A stretch of 64,000 bases of DNA from an uncultured Chloroflexia bacterium. Lineage in GTDB: Bacteria; Chloroflexota; Limnocylindria; Limnocylindrales; CSP1-4. The notes beneath the pieces are model-generated. The model was not told where the DNA came from. It was given only the letters and a program-made list of their open reading frames with translations, and searched no databases. This document shows positions 1 to 43,698 of this stretch, one piece after another. The first letter of the stretch is position 1; the number at the start of each line of letters is the position of its first letter. The stretch is from the NCBI GenBank assembly GCA_963712745.1, contig CAVQJC010000020.1:1-64000 (forward strand). Direction: 5' to 3'. A program made the position numbers and the translations under genes.

Positions 1-76
1 TGGCGCGCCCGGAGGGATTCGAACCCCCGACCCTCTGATCCGAAGTCAGATGCTCTATCCACTGAGCTACGGGCGC
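1..76 (-). tRNA. tRNA-Arg(UCG)
   Basis: Reverse complement folds as a cloverleaf: GCGCCCG acceptor stem, TCTGA-CTTCGGA-TCAGA anticodon arm, GGTTCGAATCC T-arm, CCA end. Confidence 0.95.
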
Positions 77-264
77 CAGACCTCACGCTCAGATCGAGCG
101 TCTGACTTGGTTTCGGTCCTAGCACGCCGCCATGGGACCAGCGATCGACGGTTGCCCAACTCGATGGCCAAGACTCCGAAGCGGAGGCAAGAGACCTCAC
201 CAGGGACGCAAGTATCGCATCCCTGGACATCAAGCCGACGCTGCGAGCCTCGGTCGCCACCTCC
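39..264. repeat. Left copy of ~225-bp direct repeat (tRNA 5' half plus upstream DNA); att-like island boundary
   Basis: Near-identical to 11189-11412, with 3 substitutions and 2 single-base indels. Confidence 0.9.
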
Positions 265-271
265 CTGAACC

Positions 272-352
272 TGCCAAGCCCGATGAGACACCCAGTCACA
301 GAACCACTGAGGTGGCACCTCCTTCGGTGGATTGATCCAGACGACGCTCGGC
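272..352 (-). mobile_element. IS3-family end remnant
   Basis: TGCCAAGCCCGATGAGACAC resembles the IS3 end at 48729 (CGTCAAGTCCAGTGAGACAC); encodes LPSVVWINPPKEV, like the OrfB C-terminus LPGPAWINKPKEV. Confidence 0.7.
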
Positions 353-1713
353 AGTGTCGCACCGCGATGAGCGAGGCCAGCGTCTCGGCATCGAAGGTGC
401 GGCCCTGGACATCGACGACGGCGCGGTCGCGGACGAGCCGCTCGACCTCGGCATCGGTGACGACCACGACCGAGAGGCGGTAGTCCACGAGCCGACCCAG
501 TTCGACGGCTCGACGGAACCAGAGCCGGTGGGCCTCGACGCCGAAGTGCTCGACATCGTCCATCGAGGCGAACTCGACATCCTCGCAGTCCCTCGAGCCA
601 CGTCCGGCTGGACTTCGTGTAGACGCGAGGCGTGGCAGTCGCGAAGAGCCGTCGCTTGGCCCGGATGCGATCGCCGTCGAGGACGACCTTCGTGTCGCGC
701 TTCTTGGCGTTGCCACGGCTGGTGATGCCGGCGACCCGGTGTGCTTCATCGGCCACGACGAGGTCGAAGGCCGGCACCGACGGGTCCTCCTGGGCCTCGG
801 CGATGCGGGCCGAGGAGGCGTAGGTGCCGAAGACGACGCGACGACCCTTGCCCTTGAGGAAGACCGCGATGTCGGCGGGGTCGGTCGTGACCCGGACACC
901 CAGCTCGTCGGGGTGGACGGTCCACTCGTCCTGGACCCATCGTGTCGGCATCGGAGCAGACGCCGAGGTCGATGAAGTCGTAGCTCGGCCTGCTCGCGCC
1001 ACTGGGTGCGGAACTGCTTCAGCAGCAGCAGCGTGGGCACGAGCACGAGGACGAGCCGGTCCTTGCGGGCCTCGGTGATCCAGCGGGTGACGAGCGTCTT
1101 GCCGGTGCCGCAGGCCATGATGAGCTGGACCCGCTCGTGCTCCTCGAGGGCCTTGAGCGTGTCGGCGATGGCGGCGGTCTGGTCGGGCTCGCGTGGGCTC
1201 CTTGCGCGCGACCGTGGGCCTGGCCCTGCCGCTGACCGCCTCGAGGGCGCCGGTCCAGTCGATGGTGCTGTCGACGAGGGCATCGCGGTGGACCCAGGTC
1301 ACGTCGCCGCGGCCGGCGGTGGCCTTCACGGCGTTGGCCGAGCGCCCGACGGCGTTGCTGACGATGACCCAGCGCTCGAAGAGGTCGCTGCGGAAGCTGA
1401 AGAGCGTGGCCACCTCGCCCTGGGTCACGCTGCGCGCGGGGTCGCTGTGGAACTTCACCTGCACCGCGACCCGCTTGCCCTCGCCGTCGACCGCCACGAT
1501 GTCGACGCCCTGGTCGGACTTCAGGCCGAGGCTGATGCGCTCGGGCCAGTCGTCCCACAGCCAGGCCTGCCTGAAGCCGACGACCGGGTCGTGGCGGAGG
1601 TAGTGGAGGACGGCATGCTCGAAGGCATCGCCCATGGGCGTCTTCTCACCGAGCGCCGCGATCGTCCCCTCGATGGTCTCGAAGGACGCGGGCGCACCGC
1701 TATCCGAGGACAT
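353..1713 (-). pseudogene. Mrr-like nuclease + SF2 helicase (Type ISP/LlaGI-like N-terminal part), frameshifted and truncated
   Basis: FE..DQGVDIVA..AVQVK nuclease motif; MACGTGKT Walker A in a shifted frame; DEAH; ATATP; cut off at the IS3 remnant. Confidence 0.75.
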
Positions 1714-1766
1714 CGTGGGTTAGAGGGTAGCGAGTCGAGGACTGGCCCATGACGCCGACACGGGGA

Positions 1767-1794
1767 GAGGCCCGCCACTCGCGGGACGGGCCTC
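1767..1794 (-). terminator. Conserved hairpin repeat, copy 1
   Basis: GAGGCCCGTCCC-GCGA-G(T)GGCGGGCCTC on the minus strand, just after a cargo gene stop. Confidence 0.7.
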
Positions 1795-1817
1795 GTCCCA
1801 TTGAGTTGCGGGTGGGC

Positions 1818-2343
1818 TCAGTACTCGTGGGTGCAGGTGACGCTCCACACGGGCTCTACCTCCATGTTGCCCAAGGCGAACCATGTCAACTCATGGACCC
1901 CAGTCGGGGCTGAGGTAGAGACCATCGCCGAGTCATAGAACAAGCAGTTCCAGATGCCAGACGAGCCCCAGCCGTCAGTGAAGGAATAGCCCGCACCGAT
2001 GCCCCCGTCGGGCCCCAGGCAGTAGGCCGAGTAGTCGCCGTAGAACGTGACCTTCTCGTCCCCGCTGAACCACAGCTTGACTACCTTCTCGGCATAGACG
2101 CCGTCGTACCTCGGCTTGTTGAGCTCGGTGCAGGCATCCGGGGCCGGCGTGCCACCCTTCGCGGCGAATGACACGCACTGGCCCTGGCTCAGTGAAGGCG
2201 GTGCCCTTGGCGTCGACGAGGTCCTTCCAGCCACCACTCTTGCAGGCGGCCTTGTCTGGGTCTTGCTTCGCCACCGCGATGCCCGATGTCATCATGGCCA
2301 TCAGGCCACCGACGAGCATGGCGACCACCAGTCGCTTCTTCAT
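1818..2343 (-). CDS. Secreted Cys-rich protein (CKxGGW...QGQCV motif), frameshift near 2190
   Basis: Signal peptide MKKRLVVAMLVGG..; RBS; two ORF-track frames join; paralog of 8699-9421. Confidence 0.65.
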
Positions 2344-2423
2344 GGGACTCCCCCTCTTGCCGGGCCGCACCGGAGGTGGCCACTCAGCACGCACGGCGCG
2401 ACCACGTACTGAGATTCTCCCAT

Positions 2424-2457
2424 CGCTGGCAATCAGGGCAGGCCTGATACGAGTGGA
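2424..2457. promoter_or_regulatory. 34-bp conserved divergent promoter/operator block with ATCAGG-N5-CCTGAT palindrome
   Basis: Identical to 10949-10982; lies between a cargo gene start and a mini-ORF start. Confidence 0.55.
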
Positions 2458-2475
2458 GCCGGCGACCCTCCACCC

Positions 2476-2689
2476 ATGACCGAGCATCCCGGCGAGCACA
2501 TCGACGAGACCGACGCCATCGCTGGCCGGGCTCGAGCGCGCTGGCCTCATCACCGTCACGCAGCGCGAGGACGGCGAGCCGGTCCACACGCTCACGCCGC
2601 AGGGCGAGCAGGTGTCGCGACAGATGGCGCTGTCGAGCGAGGACGACGCGGCGGTGTTGCTGGATGCGCTGGTAGAGGCGCGGGAATAA
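2476..2689 (+). pseudogene. Mini-ORF family A (possible winged-helix), frameshifted
   Basis: MTEH..IDETDAI / LERAGLITVTQREDGEPVHTLTPQGEQVSRQMA; homologous to 8439-8642. Confidence 0.65.
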
Positions 2690-2692
2690 GAT

Positions 2693-2720
2693 GAGGCCCG
2701 CCCCTCGTGGGACGGGCCTC
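2693..2720 (-). terminator. Conserved hairpin repeat, copy 2
   Basis: GAGGCCCGCCCCTCGTGGGACGGGCCTC. Confidence 0.7.
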
Positions 2721-2757
2721 TTAGTCTTCGCATCGCCGGCGAGGTGCGGTCCATTGG

Positions 2758-4083
2758 TCAGGACTGGGGTGGGCTGAGGAGAGCGACAGAGACGAGGTCG
2801 TCGCCATCGTCAGTACCTGAGACGGTCACGACCAGGCGGTCGCCGGCGACGGCCATGTCCACGTCGTAGATCCACATGCCAGCCACAGGCAGTATCGGCT
2901 GTGCCTCCTCCAGTGCCCAGTTGGTGCCGTCACTGGATGCCCAGAGCGCCAGCAGGTCGCCGTCCTGGCCCCCTTGCGCGCTCGGGCCCACGAGCAGGGC
3001 GAAGAAGTGGCCGCCCTGGACGGTGAGGGCCTTCAACTGGCCGTCCACGGGACTGCCGTAGGCGACATGCCACTCGGTGCCGTCAGGGGTGAGCAGCATG
3101 GCCGAGCCGCACGGGTCCAAGCAGATCGGGGCATCGACCACCAGCCGCTCCGCCACTGCGGCGACCGAGGTGATCGCGCCATGGGGACGGGGCATCGCGC
3201 TCGCCTCCTTCTTCCACGAGAGCCCGTCCGGCGAGCGCCAGAGCTGCCCCCAGCAGGTGCCGTTCCAGGCCCAGGGGTCCTTGTCGAAGGCTGGCATGCA
3301 GGCCTGTCCCACGGCGACGACGCCGTTTGCCAGCAGTCCGGCCCCGCTTTCCGTGCCCGGGTACAGGGCGAAGGCGTCGACGCCCCCAGCCGATGGATCC
3401 TCCATCGTGTCGATGTAGCCACCGATCTCGAAGACCTCCTTGGCCCTGGCCTGGGTCCAGGTCTTGCCGTCCGGACTGGACCAGATGGCGGCGCGAGGTG
3501 CCTTCTCGAGGTAGATGACGCCGCCCAGCAGGTAGCCGTCGTCGGCACCGAGCATCGTGCGCAGCCGGGTGCCCGTCGGGAAGGCGTCCATGGCGGTGGC
3601 CCGCTCCCATGATGTCCCATCGTCCGAGCGCCAGACCGCCGATCGCTGACCACCCTGCTCGGCCACGCGCCCGAAGACGAGGAAGCCCGCAGGGCCGTAC
3701 GCGACCCCTTGCAGGCCGATCTCCGGGCCGCTGGTGGTGGGCCGCATGATTCCGAGGTCGAGGCCAGACGAGCGAGGGTCCACGGCCTCCCAGGTGATGC
3801 CATCGGGGCTGGTCCAGGCCGGCCCCCAGCAGCGCGACGTCTCTCGTCGCCCCTGGATGCAGGCCCGCTGCCCGACCGCGACCATCGATGATGGCCCGAC
3901 CGCGATGCCGACAGCCATGGTCGTGCCGATGGTCTGGGGCAGCACGGTGGCTGTCCAGCCGTTCGCGCTTGCCGTGGTCTCGCCCCGGTCGTCTTGTGCT
4001 TGAGCCACCGGAGCCAGCGCCGGCACCCCACCGATCACGAGGAACGTCAACATAGCCGCAGCAGCGGCCCACGGACTGCGCAT
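2758..4083 (-). CDS. Secreted beta-propeller-like protein with Asp-box-like WxSxDGxxW repeats
   Basis: Signal peptide, several W-x-S-x-DG-x-x-W repeats, AAGGAG RBS before ATG 4083. Confidence 0.8.
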   Translation of the reverse strand: MRSPWAAAAAMLTFLVIGGVPALAPVAQAQDDRGETTASANGWTATVLPQTIGTTMAVGIAVGPSSMVAVGQRACIQGRRETSRCWGPAWTSPDGITWEAVDPRSSGLDLGIMRPTTSGPEIGLQGVAYGPAGFLVFGRVAEQGGQRSAVWRSDDGTSWERATAMDAFPTGTRLRTMLGADDGYLLGGVIYLEKAPRAAIWSSPDGKTWTQARAKEVFEIGGYIDTMEDPSAGGVDAFALYPGTESGAGLLANGVVAVGQACMPAFDKDPWAWNGTCWGQLWRSPDGLSWKKEASAMPRPHGAITSVAAVAERLVVDAPICLDPCGSAMLLTPDGTEWHVAYGSPVDGQLKALTVQGGHFFALLVGPSAQGGQDGDLLALWASSDGTNWALEEAQPILPVAGMWIYDVDMAVAGDRLVVTVSGTDDGDDLVSVALLSPPQS

Positions 4084-4108
4084 GACAAGCCTCCTTCGGC
4101 TCATGCGC

Positions 4109-4180
4109 GGGTCGGGTCCGCCAGTGGCTCGGCGCGGCCCCGGCGGCCAGGGTGTGGGCCGCGCCTCATCGCCTCCCGCT
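4109..4180 (-). ncRNA. c-di-GMP-II-like riboswitch variant
   Basis: AGCGGGAGGC-GAUGA..GGCCGCC..CGAGCCACUGGCG-GACCCGACC; kink-turn and pseudoknot pattern; in the 5' leader. Confidence 0.7.
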
Positions 4181-4243
4181 CTGCTGGGTATGACGCCACA
4201 GCAGTAGCAGGTCGTTCAAGAGGCGGAGGTCACGAAGGTGTGG

Positions 4244-5260
4244 TCAGGCCATCGCGGCGGCCGGCTCGGAGGCTCGCTGCTCCTGTCGGATGCTGGGGTG
4301 CCGAGCGACGAAGTCGAACACGTCCTGCGGGAGCCGCTCGTCCATGACCGCCGCGAGATGGTCCTTGCACTCGTAGATCCGGAGGGTGCAGTCGGGGATG
4401 AGCCCGGCGGTCTCCTCGATGACCTCCCGGGTGAAGAACTGGTCCGCTCCGCCACCGACGAGGAGCACCGGGATGGGGATGTCGGGCAGGATCGCCTTGG
4501 CGTCGAAGGCCATCTCCGCTTCCGCCTCGATGAGCACGTCGTCGCGGAAGGATGCATGGGCGCCCCGGAGGACGAGGGGTGCCAGCAGGGCGCCGACGAA
4601 CCGGGCGGCGCCCGGGACCCGCACGTTCGGATAGACGTCCGTGAGCATCGAGGCGAGCGCCTCGCCCAGCCGCCCGTCGTGCAGCAGCCGCGCGTAGGTG
4701 AGGTCCCCGTCATGGCGCGGCCCATCCGCCACATACCCGGCGGCGACGATGGCGATCCTGCCGAGGCGCTCGGGATGGCGGGCGGCAAGCTGGAGACCGA
4801 TCATGCCACCGGTCGAGAGGCCGAGCGCCGCCTCGATCCTCCCGCCGAACTCGTCGGCGATGAGTTGCCCGTAGTCGTCGGCCATGTCGGCGATGGAGTA
4901 GCCCTGCGGCAGTCGCTGCTTGCGGGTGACGACCCAAGCCGTCCAGCCGTCCTCCACCAGGGGACGCGCCACGCGTAGGTGCCTCGAGAGGAACGAGCCC
5001 TTCGGGGCTGTGTTGTCCGGGCCACCCGGGATGACCAGCAGGTCCTTCGGGCCGGTGCCCCACCGGGCGTAGGCCATCCCGTTGTGGGAGATGCCGCTGA
5101 CCGGCTTCGGGATGGCCGGTCCGCGCCCTCGGAGCCGGGACCGGGCGAGTGCACCCGCGACCGTGACCACTGACGCCACGACGACCTGGGATGCTCCGGC
5201 CTTTGCCGTCCTTGCAGTGTGCTCGCGTCGGGTGCTAGTGTCAACCGTGATGGTAGGCAT
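4244..5260 (-). CDS. Alpha/beta hydrolase
   Basis: GLSTGG nucleophile elbow, IPGG oxyanion region, C-terminal Asp and His. Confidence 0.85.
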   Translation of the reverse strand: MPTITVDTSTRREHTARTAKAGASQVVVASVVTVAGALARSRLRGRGPAIPKPVSGISHNGMAYARWGTGPKDLLVIPGGPDNTAPKGSFLSRHLRVARPLVEDGWTAWVVTRKQRLPQGYSIADMADDYGQLIADEFGGRIEAALGLSTGGMIGLQLAARHPERLGRIAIVAAGYVADGPRHDGDLTYARLLHDGRLGEALASMLTDVYPNVRVPGAARFVGALLAPLVLRGAHASFRDDVLIEAEAEMAFDAKAILPDIPIPVLLVGGGADQFFTREVIEETAGLIPDCTLRIYECKDHLAAVMDERLPQDVFDFVARHPSIRQEQRASEPAAAMA

Positions 5261-5286
5261 GCACTACTGTGGCAGAGGAGGCACCG

Positions 5287-5640
5287 ATGGCCCGAACGTT
5301 GGGAGCGGTCCTGCGACAGGCACGCGAGGTGCGCGGGCTCTCGGGCAACGAGAGCGCTCGCGTCGCTGGGATCTCCCAGGCCTACATGCACAAGCTCGAG
5401 CAGGACGCGGTCAAGAGCCCCTCGCCCACGGTGCTCCAGCGACTGGGCGAGGTCCTCGGCTTGCCCTACGCGGAACTCATGGTGCTCGCCGGCTACCCGA
5501 TGCCGGGCGTGGAGGAGCCCGGTGGCGCCAGGCTGGCCACGGCCCTCTTCGGCGACCTCAGCGACGACGAGCGCGACGAGCTGCTCGAGTACCTCGCCTG
5601 GTACCGGGCGCGCAAGCGGTCCAAGGCGGCGCGGCGGTAG
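5287..5640 (+). CDS. XRE-family HTH regulator
   Basis: LRQAREVRGLS..ARVAGISQAYMHKLE; GAGGAGG RBS. Confidence 0.85.
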   Translation: MARTLGAVLRQAREVRGLSGNESARVAGISQAYMHKLEQDAVKSPSPTVLQRLGEVLGLPYAELMVLAGYPMPGVEEPGGARLATALFGDLSDDERDELLEYLAWYRARKRSKAARR

Positions 5641-5658
5641 GTCGCCAGCCGACGAGCG

Positions 5659-5752
5659 CTGACCGGCCACGACGCCGAGTCGGACGCCCTCCTCGACCGG
5701 CCCCGTGCTCGCAGCGGGAATGAGAAGAGGCCCGCCCCTCGCGGGACGGGCC
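5659..5752 (+). repeat. Internally deleted mini-ORF A remnant plus hairpin copy 3 (5727-5752)
   Basis: TGHDAESDALLDR resembles MTDHDAEMDALLDQ at 9721; followed by GAGGCCCGCCCCTCGCGGGACGGGCC. Confidence 0.6.
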
Positions 5753-5788
5753 AGTTACAGCCGAGGCGGCGCGATGGGGGATGACGTC

Positions 5789-6412
5789 CTAGTCCTTGTA
5801 GCCGGTCGTCAGGTACATCAACATGACGTGCCGACCGGACACGCGGCTGAAGCCTGCCGCCTCCAGCATCTCGCGACGGTCCTCGCCGACGACGGCTCGT
5901 CCACCGGGCTTCAGGACCCGATGCATCTCCCTAAGGGCGGCTTGGGCCTTGGACTCGTAGCAGTTCACGTCGTTGCTGGTCACGACGGTGAACGTGTCGT
6001 CCTCCCAGGGCAACATGGCGACATCCCCGACAACGAACTCCGCGGAACCGTCGGCGATGCGTTCGGCATTCTCCGTGCGAGCCTGGTCAATCATCGCCTG
6101 GGACTGGTCAAGACCGGCGATGCGACGTACCTGGGGAGCGTGCTTGGCGAGGAACACCCCCGAGCCACAGGCCACGTCGAGGACCTCGTCCTCGGGCCGC
6201 AGGTCGAGGCCTTTCGCGTACGCGGCGTAGAGCCATGCGCCCAACGGCGCGTAGTAGGGGGCGATGATACGCCCGACGGCCCCTTCGAAGAACCAATGCT
6301 GGTGCGCTTCCTCCCACCGGTCGAAGCGCTCCCCGTAGCGGAGCCGCGCGGCGACCCCCGCCAGGCCGACGATGGTGATGGTCGCGAGGCCTGCTCGCAC
6401 GACACCGCTCAT
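5789..6412 (-). CDS. Class I SAM-dependent methyltransferase
   Basis: VLDVACGSG motif I, GDVAMLPWED, EMHRVLKPGG. Confidence 0.9.
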   Translation of the reverse strand: MSGVVRAGLATITIVGLAGVAARLRYGERFDRWEEAHQHWFFEGAVGRIIAPYYAPLGAWLYAAYAKGLDLRPEDEVLDVACGSGVFLAKHAPQVRRIAGLDQSQAMIDQARTENAERIADGSAEFVVGDVAMLPWEDDTFTVVTSNDVNCYESKAQAALREMHRVLKPGGRAVVGEDRREMLEAAGFSRVSGRHVMLMYLTTGYKD

Positions 6413-6431
6413 GGCAGTTCCCCCTGTCCGC

Positions 6432-6505
6432 GGGCCGGGTCCGCCAGTGGCTCGGAGCGACTCAGGCGGCCAACGTACGCGAGTCGGACTTCACGGCCTC
6501 CCGCT
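6432..6505 (-). ncRNA. c-di-GMP-II-like riboswitch variant
   Basis: AGCGGGAGGCCGUGAAG..UUGGCCGCCUGAG..CGAGCCACUGGCGGACCCGGCC upstream of the methyltransferase. Confidence 0.72.
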
Positions 6506-6580
6506 GCCTACGATTCTCCGCTCGGTGGCAAGCCAATGTGTCGATGGAGGTGACACCCGAGCGCCGATACGCTGCGCCTT

Positions 6581-6823
6581 GTGAAGGCCCCAGAGCCCCT
6601 CGTCATCCCGTGGCAAGGCCGCTCGCTTCGCGTGCGCCACGACGACGCCCGCATCACGCCCTACAGCCCACAGGGTGCGCGCATCCGCTCGGCGGTCGAG
6701 CTGGCGAGCGATGTGGAAGGGCTCAGGCTCGTCCTCGGGTCGGTACTCGGCGAGCGATACCGGGTCAGGGTCAGCGATGACGGGAGCGTGGTGGGGCTGT
6801 GGCGGCGGGTCAGCCCGGGCTAG
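6581..6823 (+). CDS. Mini-ORF family B, unknown function
   Basis: Homologous pieces at 10440-10539 (LGERYRVRVSEDGSAVGLWRR) and ~43880-43998 (KAPGPLVIPWQGR). Confidence 0.55.
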   Translation: MKAPEPLVIPWQGRSLRVRHDDARITPYSPQGARIRSAVELASDVEGLRLVLGSVLGERYRVRVSDDGSVVGLWRRVSPG

Positions 6824-6859
6824 ACTCGCGGTGATCACCGCGCAGGGATGAGGGAAGCG

Positions 6860-7507
6860 ATGGCACGGCTCGTTCACGTCGCGGCACTGGGCGTCCTGCT
6901 CATGGTGACGGTCAGCGCCCCCGTCACGGCACAGGAGGCGAGTGATGTGGACACGCTCGTGGCGCTGTGCGAAGCGAACGCGCCCGACGACGCGACCCGC
7001 GACAATTGCGTGCACGTGGCGGTGACGGTCCTCTCCACGGCCACGGTGCCCACCCCGTGGGAGGACTTCGAGGCCGGGACCGCCGAGGTCATCGAGTCGT
7101 ACACCGCGCCCCTGGTCTTCCGGCTCGAGGGCGAAGTGCTGGATACCACCCCTCCTGTCGAAGCGCTCCGGTCGTCGGGGAGTTGGACGCCCAAGGACCC
7201 GGCCAATGGCCGGACGCTCGACCCCAGCAAGAAGAAACAAGCCAAGCGCGCTCGCGTCGTGGCCGGGATGGCGGCATCGGACATGCGTGAGTTCCTGCTG
7301 TCGGTGACGCCAGGCGACTGCTATCGCGACATGTACGGCGCGCTCTGGGGCCTGGCCTCAGCGTGGCAGTACTACTCCGATGGGCTCGGCAACCCCAAGC
7401 GCCTGCTCGACCCCGCGGTCGCGGAGTTCGTTCGAGCGTGGTCGGTCACCCACTGCGGGCCGCCACGATGGACCATCGAGGTGGCGCCTCTCCCGATCAC
7501 GGAGTAG
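6860..7507 (+). CDS. Secreted hypothetical protein
   Basis: Signal peptide ending in VTA-Q; paired cysteines. Confidence 0.7.
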   Translation: MARLVHVAALGVLLMVTVSAPVTAQEASDVDTLVALCEANAPDDATRDNCVHVAVTVLSTATVPTPWEDFEAGTAEVIESYTAPLVFRLEGEVLDTTPPVEALRSSGSWTPKDPANGRTLDPSKKKQAKRARVVAGMAASDMREFLLSVTPGDCYRDMYGALWGLASAWQYYSDGLGNPKRLLDPAVAEFVRAWSVTHCGPPRWTIEVAPLPITE

Positions 7508-7529
7508 GCGCGGCCCGACATCTCGCTCC

Positions 7530-7773
7530 TTGACCGACCAGCCCACCCGTGACCAGCGATGCAAGACCCTCGCCACCCAACTCGAGGATGCTGGCCTCGC
7601 CGAGCGGTACACCGACGCCGAAGGTGCCGAGCACATCCGCCTGACGCCGGCGGGCGAACAAGGCGCGGTAGATGGCGCATGAACGACGACGCGGGCCTGG
7701 ATGCCCTGGTGACCGAGGCACTGCTGGAGGAAGCCAGGACACATGAAGAGGCCCGCCCCTCGCGGGACGGGCC
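7530..7773 (+). repeat. Degenerate mini-ORF A plus hairpin copy 4 (7748-7773)
   Basis: QLEDAGLAERYTDAEGAEHIRLTPAGEQ..MNDDAG; conserved hairpin follows the stop. Confidence 0.65.
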
Positions 7774-7799
7774 GGATCCGCTCGAGCCTCGTCAGGAGG

Positions 7800-8246
7800 C
7801 TACCCGCAGGTGTGCGTAGCGGACACTGGGTCCGACTCGTTCAACGGGACGTCGTATCGATCGGTGAGAACGATGTAGAAGGTCGTCGTGGCCGGAGGAA
7901 CGACGATCTTGGACCCGTAGATCGCGGTGGGGTTCTTGGCATCCATCCGCACGTATATCCACCCGCTCCGATAGGTCTCCGTCGAGTCGGTCGTCTCGGT
8001 CATGTATCCGAGGTGCCACCAGCGGCCGTGGGCGGTGGTCACGAGGTTGGCGCCCGCGGCACCGGTGGCTACGCCGGCAAAGGTGGCGCACTCGAAGGAA
8101 TCGAACTCCACCACAGCGGATGGCTGTCTCGCCAGGGCGCCAGCGGCACCCGCGAGGGTGGTGGTCGCCGCGAGGGCGAGCGCGACCGTCATTACGGACA
8201 GTCGTCGGGTGAACCGTGAGCGAGTCGAGTCGGTCAGCAAGGTCAT
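7800..8246 (-). CDS. Secreted hypothetical protein
   Basis: AAGGAG RBS, signal-like N-terminus, stop just before the hairpin. Confidence 0.65.
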   Translation of the reverse strand: MTLLTDSTRSRFTRRLSVMTVALALAATTTLAGAAGALARQPSAVVEFDSFECATFAGVATGAAGANLVTTAHGRWWHLGYMTETTDSTETYRSGWIYVRMDAKNPTAIYGSKIVVPPATTTFYIVLTDRYDVPLNESDPVSATHTCG

Positions 8247-8438
8247 GCTCCTTCGCCAGATACTTCCCATCGCTCGGAACCTGATGATGGACTCTGGTAC
8301 ATGAGGATGACCCCCAACCCTTGGACTATCCCCTTCGCCCTTTCGGACCAGGCGAGAGGACTTGGCACCGACCGGAACGCCGGACCGATACGACCGGGCT
8401 CGGACACAGGAAGATGCCCGCCCCGCCACCCTCGTCAC

Positions 8439-8642
8439 GTGACCGACCACATCGCCGAGACCGACGCCATCGTGGCCGAGCTCGAGCGTGCCGGCCTCAT
8501 CACGGTCACGCAGCGCGAGGACGGCGAGCCGATCTACACCCTCACGCCCGAAGGCGGGCAGGTGTCACGGCAGCTGGCGATGACCGACGATGCCGGCCAG
8601 GGCGCGCTGATGGCGGGGCTGCTGGAGGATGTCGAGACATAA
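8439..8642 (+). CDS. Mini-ORF family A, intact 67 aa (possible winged-helix)
   Basis: LERAGLI..YTLTPEG pattern typical of winged-helix wings; GTG start 6 nt after a CACCCT box. Confidence 0.7.
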   Translation: MTDHIAETDAIVAELERAGLITVTQREDGEPIYTLTPEGGQVSRQLAMTDDAGQGALMAGLLEDVET

Positions 8643-8643
8643 G

Positions 8644-8675
8644 AAGGGGCCCGCCCTTCGCGGGACGGGCCCCTT
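8644..8675 (-). terminator. Conserved hairpin repeat, copy 5
   Basis: AAGGGGCCCGCCCTTCGCGGGACGGGCCCCTT. Confidence 0.7.
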
Positions 8676-8698
8676 TCCGTACGAGCTACTGGTGATGC

Positions 8699-9421
8699 CT
8701 AGTAGGGGTATGTGAGCTGGCACCTGAGGATGTCGTCGACGGCGTTGATGAACGCCGCGACTCCACCCTCGGCATAACAGATGGGCGCCAGGACATCGCT
8801 GAAGCTGATGAGCTCCGCGTCGGTGTATCCAGTCGCAGTACACCACCACTCATCGACCTGCCCGTAGCTGAGGTAGATCGTCTCTTCCGAGAACGTACCT
8901 CCGCCCGCGTCACACGCTGTCTCCCAGGGCCCCATCGGTGGCATCGGTACGCCGCCATGGACAGCGAACTTGACGCACTGGCCCTGGTTCTTGAAGGAGT
9001 CGCCCTCAGCCGTAGCCAGTCCCTCCCAACCGCCGTCCTTGCACAGCGCCTTGGCCTCCGCCGTGGCTTGCTTCGCCTCGACCTTGGCCGCCTGCTTCGC
9101 GGCCTTCGCCTCGACCTTGGCCGCCTGCTTCGCGGCCTTCGCCTCGACCTTGGCTGCCTGCTTCACGGCCTTCGCCTCGACCTTGGCCGCCTGCTTCGCG
9201 GCCTTCGCCTCGACCTTGGCCGCCTGCTTCGCGGCCTTCGCCTCGGCTCTCGCCGCGGCCCGAGCCTGCTGCTCGGACTGCCGCTCCGCCTTGGCCTCGA
9301 CCTTCGCCGCGGCCTTGGCTTCCTTGTCGGGCTTGGCCAGCGCGGGCCCGGCCAGCGCGCTCACCAGCAGTGCCGCGGACGCGACCACGGCCACGCTCCG
9401 CATGAACGGATGACCAGACAT
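8699..9421 (-). CDS. Secreted protein with AAKQAAKVEAK repeats and CKDGGW..FKNQGQCV domain
   Basis: AGGAGG RBS, signal peptide, coding tandem repeat. Confidence 0.8.
   Translation of the reverse strand: MSGHPFMRSVAVVASAALLVSALAGPALAKPDKEAKAAAKVEAKAERQSEQQARAAARAEAKAAKQAAKVEAKAAKQAAKVEAKAVKQAAKVEAKAAKQAAKVEAKAAKQAAKVEAKQATAEAKALCKDGGWEGLATAEGDSFKNQGQCVKFAVHGGVPMPPMGPWETACDAGGGTFSEETIYLSYGQVDEWWCTATGYTDAELISFSDVLAPICYAEGGVAAFINAVDDILRCQLTYPY
9071..9245. repeat. 33-bp tandem repeat, about 5.3 copies (coding)
   Basis: CTTCGCCTCGACCTTGGCCGCCTGCTTCGCGGC units with no spacers. Confidence 0.9.
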
Positions 9422-9720
9422 TCGATACCTCCTACCGCATCGGGTCGGAGCCGGCAGGCGAGGCTCCATGGACGACGCACCGATGCTGCTCCCGCGACCG
9501 ATGTAGCGCATCCGTCCGTTCGTACCGGCACCGGAATGCGGTGCGCGGCCGAGCGGTGGGGAGGAGTAGGCTCGGCCACATGACCGAGACCCCGACACCG
9601 GCCTCGACGCCACGAGTGTCTGCTTCCTTGTTCAGCGAGATCACCTCGGAGTAGCCCTCCGCCACAGCTCCACGACCGCCACTCGTCACACCCGGACCTA
9701 GCGCCCGCTACCCTCGCGCC

Positions 9721-9952
9721 ATGACCGACCACGACGCCGAGATGGACGCCCTGCTCGACCAGTTGGAAGCCGCCGGGCTCGTGGAGGTCTACGTCAACGA
9801 GGACGGCCGGAACGCGATGCGCCTGACGCCCGCAGGCGAACAGGTGTCACGGCAGCTGGCGATGACCGACGATGCCGGCCAGGGCGACCTCATGGCGGCG
9901 TTGCTGGAGGCCGCGGAGGCACAAGAAGAGGCCCGCCCCTCGCGGGACGGGC
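9721..9952 (+). CDS. Mini-ORF family A (reads through hairpin copy 6 at 9928-9952; ORF continues to 10029)
   Basis: MTDHDAEMDALLDQLEAAGLV..RLTPAGEQVSRQLAMTDDAGQG; TACCCT-N6-ATG. Confidence 0.65.
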
Positions 9953-10103
9953 TACTTGTGAGGGCGGCAGGTGCCAGGACGCACCGCCGAGAGGGCCGCG
10001 CCGTTGTGGTACTTCCGAGCCATCGATAGCATGGGACCCCCGGGCGGCCACCCTCGCCGCATCCGAGCCCGGGTCCATCCTCGGTAGGACGGAGGCTGCG
10101 CGG

Positions 10104-10409
10104 ATGGACCAGACGGTACATGGCCGGAGCGAGCCGACATACGAGGCCCGATTCATCGAGGGACCGCGCGCCGGCACGCGTGCGACGGTGGCGAGCCTCC
10201 CAGAGGGGGGTCCGGTCGAGGTGCTGCGCGTCCAAGGGGATGACCTCGGCGTCTACCTACTCGCTGGCTACCCGGACCTCGGAGGGAGCCTGCCGTATCG
10301 GTGGATCACATGGGCTGAAGCGGCAGGACTGCGGACGTGGCTCCGCTTCGGCCGGGCGGCCCGACGAACTCCCCGGGCCGATCCGCACCAGGGCCGTCCT
10401 CTCGGCTAG
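10104..10409 (+). CDS. Hypothetical protein, TYxxRFxxGPxxG...LAGxPxxxGSLPY family
   Basis: GGAGG RBS; paralog of 11972-12280 and 12747-13187. Confidence 0.65.
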   Translation: MDQTVHGRSEPTYEARFIEGPRAGTRATVASLPEGGPVEVLRVQGDDLGVYLLAGYPDLGGSLPYRWITWAEAAGLRTWLRFGRAARRTPRADPHQGRPLG

Positions 10410-10439
10410 TCCGTCGAGCGCGCCCCGTCCAGGCCAGCG

Positions 10440-10571
10440 GGCTATCACGAGGCTCATCCTGGCGTCGGCACTCGGCGAGCGGTATCGCGTCAGGGTCAGC
10501 GAGGACGGGAGCGCCGTGGGGCTGTGGCGGCGGGCATGAGAAGAGGCCCGCCCTTCGCGGGACGGGCCTCT
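10440..10571 (+). repeat. Mini-ORF B 3' remnant plus hairpin copy 7 (10542-10571)
   Basis: Homology to the C-terminal half of 6581-6823; conserved hairpin. Confidence 0.6.
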
Positions 10572-10591
10572 GTGTCAAGGAGTCGGCTTGC

Positions 10592-10867
10592 CTACGGGAT
10601 TCGACTGCGGGAGACGACCACCGGTCGGTCCAGACACGACACGGCCAGCTCCTTCCGCAGTCGAGCGACCTCGGACTGCACGACTCCCGCCGGGCCTGTC
10701 GTGATGGCCACGAGTTCAGAGTTGGGGACACCGAAGTGCTGACACGTTGTCACCCACTCGAAGGTCGGCCTCTTCTTGTCAGGGTCCGGCACAGCCTGGG
10801 CCACGCCGGGCAGCATCGCTGCGACCAACGCTGCCGCGGCGATACCGATTATCAGTCGCCTCTTCAT
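10592..10867 (-). CDS. Small secreted protein
   Basis: MKRRLIIGIAAAALVAAMLPGVAQA signal peptide, GGGGAG RBS. Confidence 0.7.
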   Translation of the reverse strand: MKRRLIIGIAAAALVAAMLPGVAQAVPDPDKKRPTFEWVTTCQHFGVPNSELVAITTGPAGVVQSEVARLRKELAVSCLDRPVVVSRSRIP

Positions 10868-10948
10868 GGAAGCTCCCCCATTACGGGTTTGCGCTGTCGG
10901 CGGCCCATCTGGCCGCGCGGCGCGGTCCCCGACTACCGATTCTCATAC

Positions 10949-11081
10949 CGCTGGCAATCAGGGCAGGCCTGATACGAGTGGACCCCGATACCCTCTCGCC
11001 ATGACCGACGAGCACATCGCCGAGACCGACGCCATCGTGGCCGAGCTCGAGCGCGCCGGCCCGCTCACGGTGACGCAGCGC
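10949..11081 (+). repeat. Conserved promoter block plus truncated mini-ORF A (11001-11081)
   Basis: 34-bp identity with 2424-2457; TACCCT-N6-ATG; MTDEHIAETDAIVAELERAG. Confidence 0.7.
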
Positions 11082-11188
11082 TGCTTGCCCTTCCCCCGTG
11101 GCTTCGGCATCCGTCTGATGAAGCATCTAACTGGCACGGTTTCGTTAGATGCTCCACGCTCGGTAGCACGCCGCATAGACGCTGCTAG

Positions 11189-11412
11189 TCCGAAGTCAGA
11201 TGCTCTATCCACTGAGCTACGGGCGCCAGACCTACGCTCAGATCGAGCGTCTGACTTGGTTTCGGTCCTGGCACGCCGCTATGGAACCAGCGATCGACGG
11301 TTGCCCACTCGATGGCCAAGACTCCGAAGCGGAGGCAAGAGACCTCACCAGGGACGCAAGTATCGCATCCCTGGACATCAAGCCGACGCTGCGAGCCTCG
11401 GTCGCCACCTCC
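11189..11412. repeat. Right copy of the direct repeat, containing the 5' half of tRNA-Arg (11189-11226)
   Basis: Identity with 39-264 stops at the 3' edge of the anticodon loop. Confidence 0.9.
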
Positions 11413-11539
11413 TCACTAGCGACTCTGTGGACAACCCCTACCTCCGCGCTGTACATTCCGCCCTCACGGTCGCGCCGAGCGGTATGTGCCGCAGCCTGCG
11501 GGCGAGGACGACCCTGAAGCGAGAGAAGGAGGCTTGTAG

Positions 11540-11731
11540 ATGCGCGGATTCGACTGTGTCGCCCCCGACGGCAGCCACGAGGAGCCTACCCACTTCGAAG
11601 CCGAGACCGACGACGCGATCGTGGAGCAGGCGAAGACGCACATCGCCGAGTACCACGCTTCTCTGGGCCTCACCGAGGAGCAAGCGCGGGAGATGGTCGT
11701 CCAGGGTGCCTACGACATCGGCGACAGATGA
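11540..11731 (+). CDS. DUF1059-like small metal-binding protein
   Basis: FDC..FEAETDDAIVEQAKTHIAEYH; AAGGAGG RBS. Confidence 0.7.
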   Translation: MRGFDCVAPDGSHEEPTHFEAETDDAIVEQAKTHIAEYHASLGLTEEQAREMVVQGAYDIGDR

Positions 11732-11758
11732 GGCTTGCGCCCTGCGCGCTACCTGTGG

Positions 11759-11784
11759 AGGCCCGTCCCGCGAGGGGCGGGCCT
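11759..11784 (+). terminator. Conserved hairpin repeat, copy 8 (inverted)
   Basis: AGGCCCGTCCCGCGAGGGGCGGGCCT after a plus-strand gene. Confidence 0.7.
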
Positions 11785-11971
11785 ATTCCTGTGTCTCGTT
11801 GGTCATCGCCAAGGCTGACGGACGAGGTGGCACGACCAGCTCGCTAGCATCGTCGGGTGGCACGCGCCGCGGCTAGTCGATGGTCGATGGGACCTCGCCC
11901 GCGAAGAGGAACTGGCCCGGCATCAGGCCACCGAACAGCTCGCGGCTTGACGGGCTACGGACCTGGGGTGT

Positions 11972-12280
11972 CTAGCTCTGGCCTCGGCGGCGCGAGGCGC
12001 TGATCTGGCGACCGCGCGCACGCACGCGCGCAGCCCTCCGCTGCGGCATGTGCAGATAGGGCAGGCTGCCGTCCCCCCGCGGACCGCCGGCCAAGACATA
12101 GGTCCAGTCGGGCTGTCCAGGGGTGAGCAGGATGTCCGGTGGCTCACCGGACTCGAGCCCCAGAACGGCGGTCACGGTGCCGTCTCGGGGCCCCGCCTCG
12201 AAACGAACGACGTAGGTTGGTCGCTCCGGTTGCCCCTGAGCGTGGCCGCCCATCCGCGACCGGCTCCAGTGCTCCGTCAT
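11972..12280 (-). CDS. Hypothetical protein, GSLPY family
   Basis: PTYVVRFEAGPRDG..YVLAGGPRGDGSLPY. Confidence 0.6.
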   Translation of the reverse strand: MTEHWSRSRMGGHAQGQPERPTYVVRFEAGPRDGTVTAVLGLESGEPPDILLTPGQPDWTYVLAGGPRGDGSLPYLHMPQRRAARVRARGRQISASRRRGQS

Positions 12281-12468
12281 CGCCCACCGCCTGACGCGGC
12301 CGGGAGCAAGCCGGGGACGACTACAGCTGCGGTCGCTGGCGCACCCACCGCCACGACTCCGGACGACAGGTATCGCAGGGCCACGACGTCCCCGGGCAGA
12401 CCGGGGAGCGGCAGAGCACTGAGGGGGTATTGATGCGTGATCGGCTTGAGCGAGACGGCGGTTGGCAC
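12277..12468 (-). CDS. Small hypothetical protein
   Basis: AGGAG RBS and ATGA overlap with the next ORF. Confidence 0.35.
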   Translation of the reverse strand: MPTAVSLKPITHQYPLSALPLPGLPGDVVALRYLSSGVVAVGAPATAAVVVPGLLPAASGGGR

Positions 12469-12746
12469 ACTGTGCTCCTATCGGGGGACGCCGGACCAAA
12501 GTCATCCGACGTGGCTCCGAAAGTACCAAGCGGCTAGTACACCCCTCCGCACCGGACCGCCATGGTGGTGTGGGCACGCACCGTGAGGTGGGCTGAATCC
12601 GAGGTGGCCGGTCGTAGAGGAGGACCGCTGCATCGGCAACGACACGGCGATCTCGACGGGTCGATGGATGTTTATGGGTGCCCCGGTGCACCACCTAGCC
12701 GGCGGCTTCGTTGACAGGACCATCGGGCTATCCGCACGATAGCCCG

Positions 12747-13187
12747 ATGGAGAGCGAGAGCATCTCGACGAGGCCGCAGACCTACCGCGCACGGCTTCGA
12801 GGTGGTCCCGACGATGGCGCTGTGGTCAGGGTCCCGCCGCTGCCTGGTGGCGGCCCACCCGACTTCTTCCATGCTGGACCCGACGACCCAGGGATGTACG
12901 TGCTCGCCGGCGCGCCGAACGAGGATGGCAGCCTACCTTACTGGTTCATCTCGTCGATGCCGGCCTTGGCGGAGCGCACGGCACCCGAGCAATCGACCTG
13001 GACGCTCGTTTCGGTAGGCTGCGGGAACGCCGCCCCGAAGGTCTGGCACCAGCATTGCGAGGGGACCAGGCCGGTGCTCCTCCGGCCTGAGCCTGTCGCG
13101 TCATCCCGGGCATCGTCGATCGTCGGCCGAGCGTATGTCTGCCCCGAGTGCGAGCAGACGACGGTCATCAGCCTGCCCGAGGAGTAG
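12747..13187 (+). CDS. Hypothetical protein, GSLPY family with C-terminal Zn-ribbon-like motif
   Basis: TYRARLRGGPDDG..YVLAGAPNEDGSLPY; HQHC..CPEC. Confidence 0.65.
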   Translation: MESESISTRPQTYRARLRGGPDDGAVVRVPPLPGGGPPDFFHAGPDDPGMYVLAGAPNEDGSLPYWFISSMPALAERTAPEQSTWTLVSVGCGNAAPKVWHQHCEGTRPVLLRPEPVASSRASSIVGRAYVCPECEQTTVISLPEE

Positions 13188-23880: not shown

Positions 23881-23900
23881 GTGCCAGAGAAGGTGATGTG

Positions 23901-43675: not shown

Positions 43676-43698
43676 CGCCTATCCCCCCTTTGCTCGGC

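What the first reader, a model, noticed from the sequence alone, without database searches (positions are those of the whole stretch)
1767..11081. Cassette-like array: repeated 'promoter - mini-ORF - GNRA hairpin' linker between unrelated cargo genes
Seen: a ~250-300 bp linker recurs. Mini-ORF A starts at 2476, 5659, 7530, 8439, 9721 and 11001; the hairpin occurs at 1767, 2693, 5727, 7748, 8644, 9928 and 10542. Each hairpin is met within ~0-40 bp by the stop of a minus-strand ORF. These are four secreted proteins, a propeller protein, a methyltransferase and a remnant at 9952. Conservation ends at the cargo-side arm of the hairpin. Inference: the linker gives a terminator to the gene on its right and a divergent promoter to the gene on its left. 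It could act as a recombination or capture unit that stacks and swaps genes, like an integron, but no attC sites or integrase are visible. I do not recognise this as a described system.
Basis: partly seen in the sequence, partly recalled or inferred. Interest (0 to 1): 0.88.

Follow-up and report, generated by a model that had tools for sequence, protein, structure and literature searches.

The report
Repeated terminator hairpin in tRNA island
The repeated hairpin is most likely a genus-specific, sequence-conserved transcription terminator behind small secreted-protein genes in a decayed island at a tRNA-Arg gene, and the repeated mini-ORF is a small uncharacterised protein family, so an integron-like gene-capture machine is not supported.

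Summary
The 24-28 nt GNRA hairpin stands at all seven stated places (plus 11758, inverted, and 43185). Six copies of mini-ORF "A" are there, but only two are intact.

The hairpin reads as an intrinsic terminator of the minus-strand cargo genes. It has a G.U pair on that strand only and a conserved UCUUCU tail, and in 26 of 30 genome copies a co-oriented ORF ends 6-86 nt upstream.

It is a roughly 45-nt element confined to this genus among the genomes searched, with 0-36 copies per genome. The genus belongs to uncultured Chloroflexota. Copies cluster in same-strand arrays in variable regions, several of them beside tRNA genes.

A is a real small protein family (438 cluster representatives) resembling the wing half of a MarR-type winged helix. 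A and the hairpin also occur apart: A lies beside 13 of 84 hairpins.

The array lies between 226-bp direct repeats made of the tRNA-Arg(TCG) 5' half plus an integrase remnant. Two related species hold the same kind of island with an intact Xer-like integrase.

Islands of four species share this framework but no cargo. I found no integron integrase or attC-like site, and no RAYT gene in the five genomes searched. Duplication edges do not consistently fall at hairpins.

Verdict: a patchwork of self-contained transcription units, not a shown capture system. Two cargo genes carry c-di-GMP-II-GCG riboswitches, of which the genome has 47.

The parts
1..76 (-). Intact tRNA-Arg(TCG). The contig begins at its 3' end.
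   Evidence: ARAGORN; Rfam tRNA, 72.8 bits
39..264 (.). Direct repeat copy 1. It holds the tRNA 5' half up to the anticodon loop, about 190 bp upstream, and the first ~27 codons of an island integrase (184-263).
   Evidence: 98% identical to 11189-11412; tblastn with the integrase of L020
265..1713 (-). Broken Mrr-type nuclease plus helicase gene. It is frameshifted and cut by the repeat.
   Evidence: Pfam Mrr_cat_2 2.3e-14, and ResIII in two frames
1767..1794 (-). Hairpin 1
1818..2343 (-). Cargo 1, a secreted protein with one frameshift. It is a paralogue of the middle part of cargo 5.
   Evidence: Translations (shared CKxGGW...QGQCV stretch, read directly)
2476..2694 (+). A copy 1, full length but frameshifted
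2693..2720 (-). Hairpin 2
2758..4083 (-). Cargo 2, a secreted repeat (propeller-like) protein. 2648-4238 is 98.4% identical to C2:106932-108511.
4101..4185 (-). c-di-GMP-II-GCG riboswitch aptamer in the leader of cargo 2
   Evidence: Rfam RF03170, 59.1 bits against a gathering score of 47.9
4244..5260 (-). alpha/beta hydrolase gene
   Evidence: Pfam Abhydrolase_1 3.7e-09
5269..5640 (+). XRE-type HTH regulator. 5229-5675 is 97.5% identical to C5:7406-6959.
   Evidence: Pfam HTH_31 1.5e-12
5659..5709 (+). A copy 2, a 17-codon remnant fused to the hairpin. 5642-5752 is 96.4% identical to C4:193956-193846.
   Evidence: (D14)
5727..5754 (-). Hairpin 3
5789..6412 (-). SAM-dependent methyltransferase (cargo)
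   Evidence: Pfam Methyltransf_11 1.4e-22
6424..6510 (-). c-di-GMP-II-GCG riboswitch aptamer in the leader of the methyltransferase gene
   Evidence: Rfam RF03170, 49.5 bits against 47.9
6581..6823 (+). Small protein family B (80 aa)
   Evidence: 69-74% identical homologues in C8, L019, L020 and L014
6848..7507 (+). Secreted protein of 219 aa on the plus strand
7530..7747 (+). A copy 3, degenerate
7748..7775 (-). Hairpin 4
7800..8246 (-). Cargo 4, a secreted protein
8439..8642 (+). A copy 4, intact (67 aa)
8644..8675 (-). Hairpin 5 (13 pairs, 6-nt loop)
8699..9421 (-). Cargo 5, a secreted protein with an 11-residue (33-nt) tandem repeat
   Evidence: (D1)
9721..9930 (+). A copy 5, intact in frame. 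Its stop is lost, so the ORF runs through the hairpin to 10029.
   Evidence: (P0007)
9928..9955 (-). Hairpin 6. No coding-like ORF was found upstream of it.
10104..10409 (+). Small protein family C. Relatives are encoded in 11972-12694 and 12711-13187.
10450..10539 (+). Remnant of the 3' end of family B, abutting hairpin 7
   Evidence: D12, 88% identical to 6725-6809
10543..10570 (-). Hairpin 7
10592..10867 (-). Cargo 7, a secreted protein of 91 aa
11001..11081 (+). A copy 6, cut after 27 codons
11122..11188 (.). Island-end junction conserved in the islands of two relatives
   Evidence: 86.6% identical to L028:9584-9650; 77% to L019:1743-1634
11189..11412 (.). Direct repeat copy 2. It holds the 5' half only of tRNA-Arg(TCG), the upstream region and an integrase remnant (11338-11453).
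   Evidence: (tRNA 23.7 bits, below threshold)
11758..11785 (+). Hairpin in the opposite orientation, 28 nt behind the plus-strand ORF 11540-11731

Best explanation
The region 265-11188 is the cargo part of a decayed integrative island, or of two stacked ones, at tRNA-Arg(TCG). It is built from self-contained transcription units.

Each unit is a leader (in two cases a c-di-GMP-II-GCG riboswitch), then a gene that usually encodes an exported protein, then a conserved element of about 45 nt. On the cargo strand that element reads GA-GGCCCGUCCC-GCGA-GGGGCGGGCC-UC followed by UCUUCUYRUGUC.

The element works as a Rho-independent terminator and probably as a 3'-end protecting hairpin for the cargo mRNA. 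It may also stop, more weakly, the small gene that converges on it from the other side.

Mini-ORF A is a true small protein (about 67-75 aa). It is derived from the recognition-helix, wing and C-terminal-helix part of a MarR-type winged helix. It is one of several small gene families (A, B and others) that lie on the tail side of hairpins. It is probably a local regulator, but this step is inferred.

The repeated 'linker' arose by segmental duplication, unequal crossing-over and decay among paralogous A-plus-hairpin segments. General recombination at these portable stretches of homology shuffles cargo. A dedicated site-specific recombinase is not required.

Shown: the anatomy, the distribution, the island context and the independence of A and the hairpin. 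Inferred: termination in vivo, promoter activity, the role of A and the recombination route.
For: Terminator
- The stem is fully paired only on the minus strand, with a U.G pair at stem position 7. On the plus strand that position is a C.A mismatch: -25.1 against -19.9 kcal/mol for 5715-5762.
- A generic terminator scan flags 4 of the 7 hairpins, all on the minus strand.
- In 26 of 30 G000 copies a coding-like ORF on the hairpin's sense strand ends 6-86 nt upstream.
- 17 of those 26 ORFs look exported, against 254 of 1326 background ORFs by the same crude rule. Paralogues are not independent.
- The tail UCUUCUYRUGUC is conserved in 67 aligned copies whatever lies beyond it.
- The few stem changes keep pairing (U.G to U-A or C-G; 93.2% of cells paired).

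A family, not a chance repeat
- 30 copies in G000.
- The covariance model finds it in 39 of 49 genomes of the genus, with 0-36 copies each.
- In a class-wide sample, 15 of 150 genomes outside the genus have one weak match each.

Independence of A and the hairpin
- An A-family ORF lies on the tail side of 13 of 84 hairpins, and family B at 6 of 84.
- Arrays in L011, L012, L014 and L018 have no A.
- The A copies at C4:144652 and C5:6958 have no hairpin.

A is a real protein
- 438 cluster representatives at E<=1e-3, nearly all 52-140 aa.
- Conserved columns L15, A18, G19, G29, L35, T36 and G39.
- AlphaFold model with pLDDT 81 and the order helix, beta-hairpin, helix, helix.
- The profile hits the wing region of 2obp_A (2.4e-5) and MarR proteins (1.4e-3).

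Island
- A 226-bp direct repeat with its edge in the anticodon loop, carrying integrase remnants.
- The same layout, with an intact 313-315 aa tyrosine recombinase, in G024 and G005.
- The tRNA lies beside the NAGPA gene with no hairpin found in the fetched stretch (empty-site-like) in G021 and G010.

Patchwork
- Segments of the array recur elsewhere in the genome at 66-98% identity, with edges mostly not at hairpins.
Against: - No RNA data, so termination, promoters and expression of A are untested.
- The U-tract is short and interrupted.
- The near-invariance of the 24-mer needs more than 'any stable hairpin will do'. It holds across species whose orthologous genes are only 66-71% identical. 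Compensatory changes inside the core stem are almost absent. The copies were, however, found by sequence, which biases this.
- Only about 10-36 genes per genome use this element, and they cluster. A pure terminator role does not explain that.
- Islands of G000, G054, G024 and G005 share the tRNA remnant, hairpins and riboswitch. G000, G054 and G024 also share the junction. A or B modules are shared too, but no cargo is.
- Hairpin polarity relative to the island ends is the same in 4 of 4 islands.
- These last two points are what a cassette system would also give.
Confidence: 0.62

Rival explanations
1. Cassette system. The hairpin element is a recombination site at which self-contained gene units are captured, excised and swapped between island arrays. 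The enzyme would be the island's Xer-like integrase, the host Xer proteins or an unknown one. This would be an integron analogue without IntI or attC.
For: - Arrays of same-strand units, each ending in the element, occur in several species.
- Framework but no cargo is shared between the islands of four species.
- Polarity relative to the island ends is conserved in 4 of 4 islands.
- Sequence is conserved rather than only structure.
- Homology between some copies stops at the cargo-side base of the stem, for example 5642-5752 against C4.
- One 354-nt metagenome contig joins 9840 back to 8559. A unit circle or a tandem duplication would give this junction. The contig has depth 3.6, and the two sides share 46 identical letters, more than the assembler's word length (recalled as 31), so it may be an assembly chimera.
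Against: - There is no recombinase gene inside or directly beside the arrays in 5 genomes.
- The island integrase is 7-8 kb from the nearest hairpin in G024 and G005 and is missing in G000.
- That integrase is below the cut-off of every named family, integron integrase included (53.6 against 265 bits).
- No Y1/RAYT gene in 5 of 5 genomes.
- The most recent duplication (98.4%) has its edge 47 nt outside the hairpin. Other edges lie inside A or between genes.
- Units hold their own leaders and riboswitches, divergent genes and up to three genes.
- The 4-nt GNRA loop and the U-rich tail are RNA features.
Confidence: 0.08
2. RNA processing or stability element rather than a terminator. The hairpin marks mature 3' ends by blocking exonucleases or as an RNase III-type substrate, as is now proposed for TRIT of Mycobacterium tuberculosis. 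It could also bind a specific protein that controls mRNAs of exported proteins.
For: - A very stable stem with a GNRA loop.
- Strict sequence conservation.
- Enrichment behind exported-protein genes, 17 of 26 against 19%.
- Species-specific conserved 3' elements of this kind are described (PMC13714241, passages read).
Against: - The conserved U-rich tail directly after the stem is the hallmark of intrinsic termination.
- No data distinguish the two roles, and they are not exclusive.
Confidence: 0.2
3. Stacked scars. Each unit is what remains of a separate integration of one whole mobile element, so the linker is a fixed end segment of that element.
For: - The array lies in an island family at a tRNA.
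- G000 shows two tRNA-half-plus-integrase remnants, which suggests at least two stacked islands.
- A copies are truncated in different ways.
Against: - No tRNA fragment, junction copy or integrase remnant lies between the units. The junction 11082-11188 has no second copy in the genome.
- Hairpins with quite different neighbours occur at many loci.
- Units are only 0.6-3 kb long.
Confidence: 0.04
4. Miniature mobile element. The roughly 45-nt element inserts by itself behind genes, like a REP or MITE.
For: A small palindromic unit that is multi-copy and lineage-restricted.
Against: - No RAYT gene.
- No target-site duplications or terminal repeats seen in 67 aligned copies.
- Low copy number.
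- A constant position 15-45 nt after stop codons.
Confidence: 0.04

Closest known systems
Species-specific conserved 3'-end hairpin elements: TRIT of Mycobacterium tuberculosis, DNA-uptake-sequence terminators of Neisseria, REP elements
   Same: - A near-identical hairpin motif recurs behind many unrelated genes of one lineage.
- It lies shortly after stop codons.
- It is thought to terminate or shape 3' ends (PMC13714241, passages read).
   Different: - Far fewer copies: 0-36 per genome, against the 72 TRIT and 416 DNA-uptake motif sites reported in PMC13714241.
- It is clustered in arrays in variable regions, several of them beside tRNA genes, and is tied to exported-protein genes.
- It has a conserved GNRA loop and a conserved 12-nt tail.
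- No sequence comparison with TRIT was made, because none was at hand.
Integron cassette arrays (IntI, attI, attC)
   Same: - Same-strand arrays of units that each end in an imperfect palindrome.
- Cargo differs between relatives while the repeated element stays.
   Different: - No integron integrase.
- The element is 24-28 nt with a 4-nt loop rather than an attC of 57-141 nt (size recalled).
- Units carry their own leaders and riboswitches, and sometimes several genes on both strands.
Phage and island 'morons' (independent transcription units with their own promoter and terminator; PMC3594210, abstract seen)
   Same: Cargo genes are flanked by their own regulatory leader and a factor-independent terminator, inside an integrated element.
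   Different: - Many in a row.
- One shared terminator sequence.
- No phage structural genes seen.
- Promoters not shown.
tRNA-gene integrative islands with tyrosine integrases
   Same: - Direct repeat of a tRNA fragment with its edge in the anticodon loop.
- Integrase next to the intact tRNA in relatives.
- Variable cargo.
- Empty site in other species.
   Different: - The duplicated part is the 5' half of the tRNA plus upstream DNA. The element therefore supplies the 5' half and the promoter. From recall, the usual case is the 3' part.
- In G000 the integrase is reduced to about 27 codons at both repeat copies.
MarR/PadR winged-helix regulators (for mini-ORF A)
   Same: The profile and the fold match the end of the recognition helix, the beta-wing and the following helix.
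   Different: - A lacks the N-terminal helices of the helix-turn-helix.
- No Pfam or NCBIfam model reaches its cut-off.
- All fold matches have E > 0.3.

Membership tests
Integron | Integron-type tyrosine integrase (IntI) next to the array | tested here: not met
   No PF00589 match on contig C20 or within the arrays of the 5 genomes searched. The island integrase of L020 scores 53.6 bits against a cut-off of 265 for TIGR02249.
Integron | attC sites: long imperfect inverted repeats with conserved outer cores (definition recalled) | tested here: not met
   The element is a 10-12 bp stem with a 4-nt loop, 24-28 nt in all. No attC model was available to run.
Integron | Mostly promoterless single-gene cassettes read from a common promoter | tested here: not met
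   Riboswitch leaders lie before two cargo genes. Genes lie on both strands, and units hold one to three genes.
REP/RAYT system | RAYT (Y1 transposase, PF01797) in the genome | tested here: not met
   0 of 5 hairpin-bearing genomes have a match. The genomes are 70-88% complete.
Intrinsic (Rho-independent) terminator | G+C-rich stem-loop followed by a U-rich tract, downstream of and co-oriented with a gene | tested here: met
   26 of 30; 4 of 7 flagged by a generic scan; z-scores -3.0 to -4.2 on the minus strand; tail TCTTCT.
Intrinsic (Rho-independent) terminator | Transcripts end at the tail | not testable with these tools
   The run search was made for DNA only, and none of the 24 listed runs is on record as RNA.
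tRNA-integrating genomic island | Direct repeat of part of the tRNA gene at both ends | tested here: met
   39-264 against 11189-11412, 98% identical, with its edge in the anticodon loop.
tRNA-integrating genomic island | Integrase gene at one end | tested here: inconclusive
   Only remnants of about 27 codons in G000. Intact in the corresponding islands of G024 and G005.
MarR-type winged helix (mini-ORF A) | Complete helix-turn-helix plus wing | tested here: not met
   The model has one helix before the wing. The profile aligns only to residues 55-91 of the 96-residue 2obp_A. Pfam gives only DUF505 below its cut-off.
c-di-GMP-II-GCG riboswitch (leaders of two cargo genes) | Match to RF03170 above the gathering score | tested here: met
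   59.1 and 49.5 bits against 47.9. Ligand binding was not tested.

The most novel reading that the evidence does not exclude
The 45-nt hairpin element is the boundary and joining site of a gene-cassette platform that is not an integron. Self-contained units (leader or riboswitch, exported-protein gene, hairpin) would be exchanged between arrays in variable regions across a genus of uncultured Chloroflexota. Recombination would be aimed at the hairpin, carried out by a Xer-like island integrase or a still unseen enzyme. The small A and B genes would travel as adaptor modules.
Probability: 0.08. Interest if true: 0.85.

Novelty: new variant of a known kind. Interest (0 to 1): 0.4.

Why it matters
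Read as I propose, this is a clear example outside the well-studied phyla of a lineage-specific, sequence-fixed terminator. It marks a small, fast-changing set of genes for exported proteins carried on tRNA-linked islands.

It also defines an unannotated small-protein family with 438 cluster representatives.

It shows how short conserved linkers can make island cargo easy to reshuffle by ordinary recombination.

It also points to a genome with 47 c-di-GMP-II-GCG riboswitch matches. That makes this organism group a good place to learn what that riboswitch variant senses and controls.

If the cassette reading were right, it would be a new gene-capture system.

Tried and rejected
- Integron reading: rejected for lack of IntI and attC-like sites, and because units carry their own leaders.
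- REP/RAYT reading: no PF01797 match in 5 genomes.
- Stacked whole-element scars: no att, tRNA or junction copies between units.
- Rfam on 1-13000 at E<=1 gave no family for the hairpin. A lax scan of the leader 2330-2480 gave only chance-level hits.
- The sigma-70 promoter scan was uninformative: 1 found against 0.8 expected.
- Fold search of the A model against the PDB gave no match at E<=0.001. The best hits, at E 0.33 and above, are MarR/PadR proteins.
- The ESM Atlas gave no score of 0.9 or more for A.
- The word-based homologue search found only 7 proteins. The full HMM search showed this was a sensitivity limit.
With the single protein it found nothing. With alignment A5 it found one locus, titled as an uncultured Chloroflexia MAG.
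- Literature: a search for 'c-di-GMP-II-GCG' returned 2 papers (listing only). I found no paper on this hairpin. My only searches that bear on it were made, so this is not evidence that it is unpublished.
- In PMC3993855 the only hit for 'TRIT' was the word Triton, so that paper is not cited for TRIT.

Reads. The four runs laid hold only short, low-depth contigs (longest listed pieces 570 nt or less, depth 2-6).
- Parts without cover mean nothing.
- All joints but one have a side of 39 letters or less, or involve the multi-copy riboswitch, and were set aside as repeats or other organisms.
- The joint 9840 to 8559 (side 144, 46 shared letters, one contig, depth 3.6) is kept only as a weak hint.

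Covariation. Changes on both sides occur only in the two outer pairs. This says little, because the copies were collected by sequence.

Full report
**What is there**

The window is the first 64 kb of contig C20 of a 4.2-Mb, 20-contig, 68% G+C genome that is 84.5% complete. The only named relative found is a MAG titled 'uncultured Chloroflexia bacterium'.

The hairpin is at 1767, 2693, 5727, 7748, 8646, 9928 and 10543, all in one orientation. It also occurs inverted at 11758 and once more at 43185. No match is expected by chance.

Six copies of mini-ORF A are present, but only two are intact (8439-8642 and 9721-9930). The others are frameshifted (2476), reduced to 17 codons (5659), degenerate (7530) or cut after 27 codons (11001).

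A co-oriented coding ORF ends 23-39 nt before 6 of the 7 hairpins.

**The hairpin is an RNA-level element of the cargo strand**

On the minus strand the stem GGCCCGUCCC/GGGGCGGGCC is fully paired through a U.G pair, and it closes a GCGA loop. On the plus strand the same position is a C.A mismatch, so the fold is weaker (-25.1 against -19.9 kcal/mol for 5715-5762).

Aligning 67 copies from 13 genomes shows that conservation starts abruptly at GA-GGCCC on the gene side. On the other side it continues for about 12 nt (TCTTCTYRTGTC), whatever lies beyond.

A generic scan calls four of the seven hairpins terminator-like, all on the minus strand.

Genome-wide there are 30 copies. In 26 of them a coding-like ORF on the sense strand ends 6-86 nt upstream. 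By a crude hydrophobic N-terminus rule, 17 of those 26 look exported, against 254 of 1326 ORFs on three other contigs. Paralogues inflate this contrast.

I therefore read the element as an intrinsic terminator and 3' protecting hairpin of the cargo genes. It possibly also acts on the small gene that converges on it.

**It is a lineage-specific family**

A covariance model finds the element in 39 of 49 genomes of the genus, with 0 to 36 copies each. G000 has the most.

In a class-wide sample, 15 of 150 genomes outside the genus have a single weak match each, of 42 bits or less. The exact-pattern search gave 12 of 24 genomes of the genus and 0 of 16 of another family of the order.

In relatives the copies again form same-strand clusters behind small, mostly exported-protein genes. 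Several of these clusters lie next to tRNA genes.

Stem changes keep pairing, but compensatory double changes are confined to the two outer pairs. Sequence, not only structure, is held constant, although orthologous genes of these species are only 66-71% identical. A plain terminator does not fully explain this, and I count it against my reading.

**Mini-ORF A is a real small protein, but not a fixed partner of the hairpin**

A profile of eight copies finds 438 cluster representatives at E<=1e-3 (144 at 1e-10 or better). Nearly all are stand-alone proteins of 52-140 aa. Several of them read through their stop into the translated hairpin, so the juxtaposition is common in this family (read directly).

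The AlphaFold model (pLDDT 81) is helix, beta-hairpin, helix, helix. A profile search of PDB sequences aligns it to the wing region of a small winged-helix protein (2obp_A, 2.4e-5) and to MarR proteins (1.4e-3). Fold matches are all weak, with E of 0.33 or more. No Pfam or NCBIfam model reaches its cut-off.

Only 13 of 84 hairpins examined have an A-family ORF on their tail side, and 6 of 84 have a second small family, B. Whole arrays in other species lack A. Two intact A genes of G000 have no hairpin behind them.

A occurs in 25 of 49 genomes of the genus, largely the hairpin-rich ones. These genomes are kin, so this is not independent support.

**Island context**

tRNA-Arg(TCG) is at 1-76. 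Positions 39-264 recur at 11189-11412 at 98% identity. The edge of the repeat lies in the anticodon loop, so the second copy holds only the 5' half of the tRNA.

Both copies also hold the first ~27 codons of a tyrosine recombinase. In G024 and G005 that recombinase is intact (313-315 aa, Xer-like, below every curated cut-off). There it sits next to the full tRNA at the far end of an island whose near end is the same tRNA 5' half.

The junction 11122-11188 is conserved in G054 and G024. In G021 and G010 the tRNA lies next to the NAGPA gene, with no hairpin found in the fetched stretch.

The array is therefore the cargo part of a decayed island of one family, probably two stacked islands.

Between the islands of G000, G054, G024 and G005, the only shared parts are the tRNA remnant, the junction, A or B, the riboswitch and the hairpin (69-92% identity), and not every island holds all of them. 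No cargo gene is shared. Hairpin polarity relative to the island ends is the same in 4 of 4 islands.

**How the pattern arose**

Pieces of the array recur elsewhere in G000 at very different ages:
- 2648-4238 matches contig C2 at 98.4%.
- 5229-5675 matches C5 at 97.5%.
- 5642-5752 matches C4 at 96.4%.
- Other pieces match at 66-88%.

The edges of these pieces lie 47 nt outside a hairpin, inside A, between genes, and once exactly at a hairpin. This fits segmental duplication, unequal crossing-over and decay among paralogous linkers better than cutting at one site.

No recombinase lies in or beside the arrays, and no RAYT gene is present in the five genomes searched.

One metagenome contig joins 9840 back to 8559, which makes an A5/A4 hybrid. 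It could be a tandem duplication, a circle or an assembly chimera across 46 shared letters.

**Comparison and verdict**

The closest known things are species-specific conserved 3' hairpins: TRIT, DNA-uptake-sequence terminators and REP (PMC13714241, passages read). Also close are moron-like autonomous transcription units within integrated elements (PMC3594210, abstract only).

It resembles an integron only in outline and fails each defining feature that I could test.

I put the terminator-plus-patchwork reading at about 0.62, an RNA processing or stability role (not exclusive) at 0.2, and a true cassette system at 0.08.

The finding is real and apparently undescribed, but it is a variant of known kinds. 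Interest is 0.4.

Noticed in passing
window 4101-4185 (-) and 6424-6510 (-); also 43691-43778 (-), plus weaker matches below the gathering score at 23802-23888 and 50835-50890: c-di-GMP-II-GCG riboswitch aptamers (RF03170) lead the propeller-like and methyltransferase genes. The whole genome has 47 matches at E<=1e-3, 32 of them above the gathering score. They are often clustered, for example at C7:63-75 kb, C5:77-113 kb and C17:159-174 kb. At least 6 genes have both this riboswitch in front and the conserved hairpin behind (my comparison of coordinates).
   Followed up: partly
window 1-264 and 11189-11453; L019, L020: The island at tRNA-Arg(TCG) duplicates the 5' half of the tRNA, with the integrase lying upstream of the restored gene. 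The element must therefore supply the 5' half and the promoter. From recall, the usual case is the 3' part. In G000 both repeat copies end at the same point inside the integrase remnant. That suggests duplication or gene conversion rather than two independent deletions.
   Followed up: partly
window 6581-6823 and 10450-10539; C8:11606-11839; L019:6961-7194; L020:44-271: A second small protein family (B, about 75-80 aa, no Pfam or NCBIfam match) recurs in the arrays of several species and often abuts the hairpin as A does.
   Followed up: partly
window 10104-10409, 11972-12694 and 12711-13187: A third small family (C) shares a motif of the form Y..RF..GP.DG...V...GG.P......G.Y.LAG.P...GSLPY. 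No family match was found.
   Followed up: no
window 67-1713 (-): Remnant of a large Mrr-nuclease plus helicase (restriction or defence-like) gene. It is frameshifted and cut off by the direct repeat.
   Followed up: partly
window 2432-2448 and 10957-10973: A palindrome, ATCAGG-N5-CCTGAT, lies in the conserved block between the cargo start and the A start. It is a candidate operator and also occurs in the C4 copy of the block.
   Followed up: no
G000 contig ends: C20:1, C8:1-600, C10:176.5-178.2 kb, C17:1-1.5 kb: Several contigs start or end within hairpin arrays or at the tRNA. The 284-aa gene before C8:3079 recurs before C10:177195. The arrays therefore break the assembly and may be longer than seen.
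   Followed up: no
window 1-13500, runs X1-X4: Contigs of runs labelled estuary or sediment metagenome carry pieces of 220-377 nt with 0-2 differences from the window. The organism or a close strain is therefore present there at low depth.
   Followed up: partly
window 8699-9421 (-): The secreted protein has six or so tandem copies of an 11-residue Lys/Ala/Glu-rich unit (33-nt period, 9049-9279). This is followed by a Cys-containing domain shared with the frameshifted gene 1818-2343.
   Followed up: no
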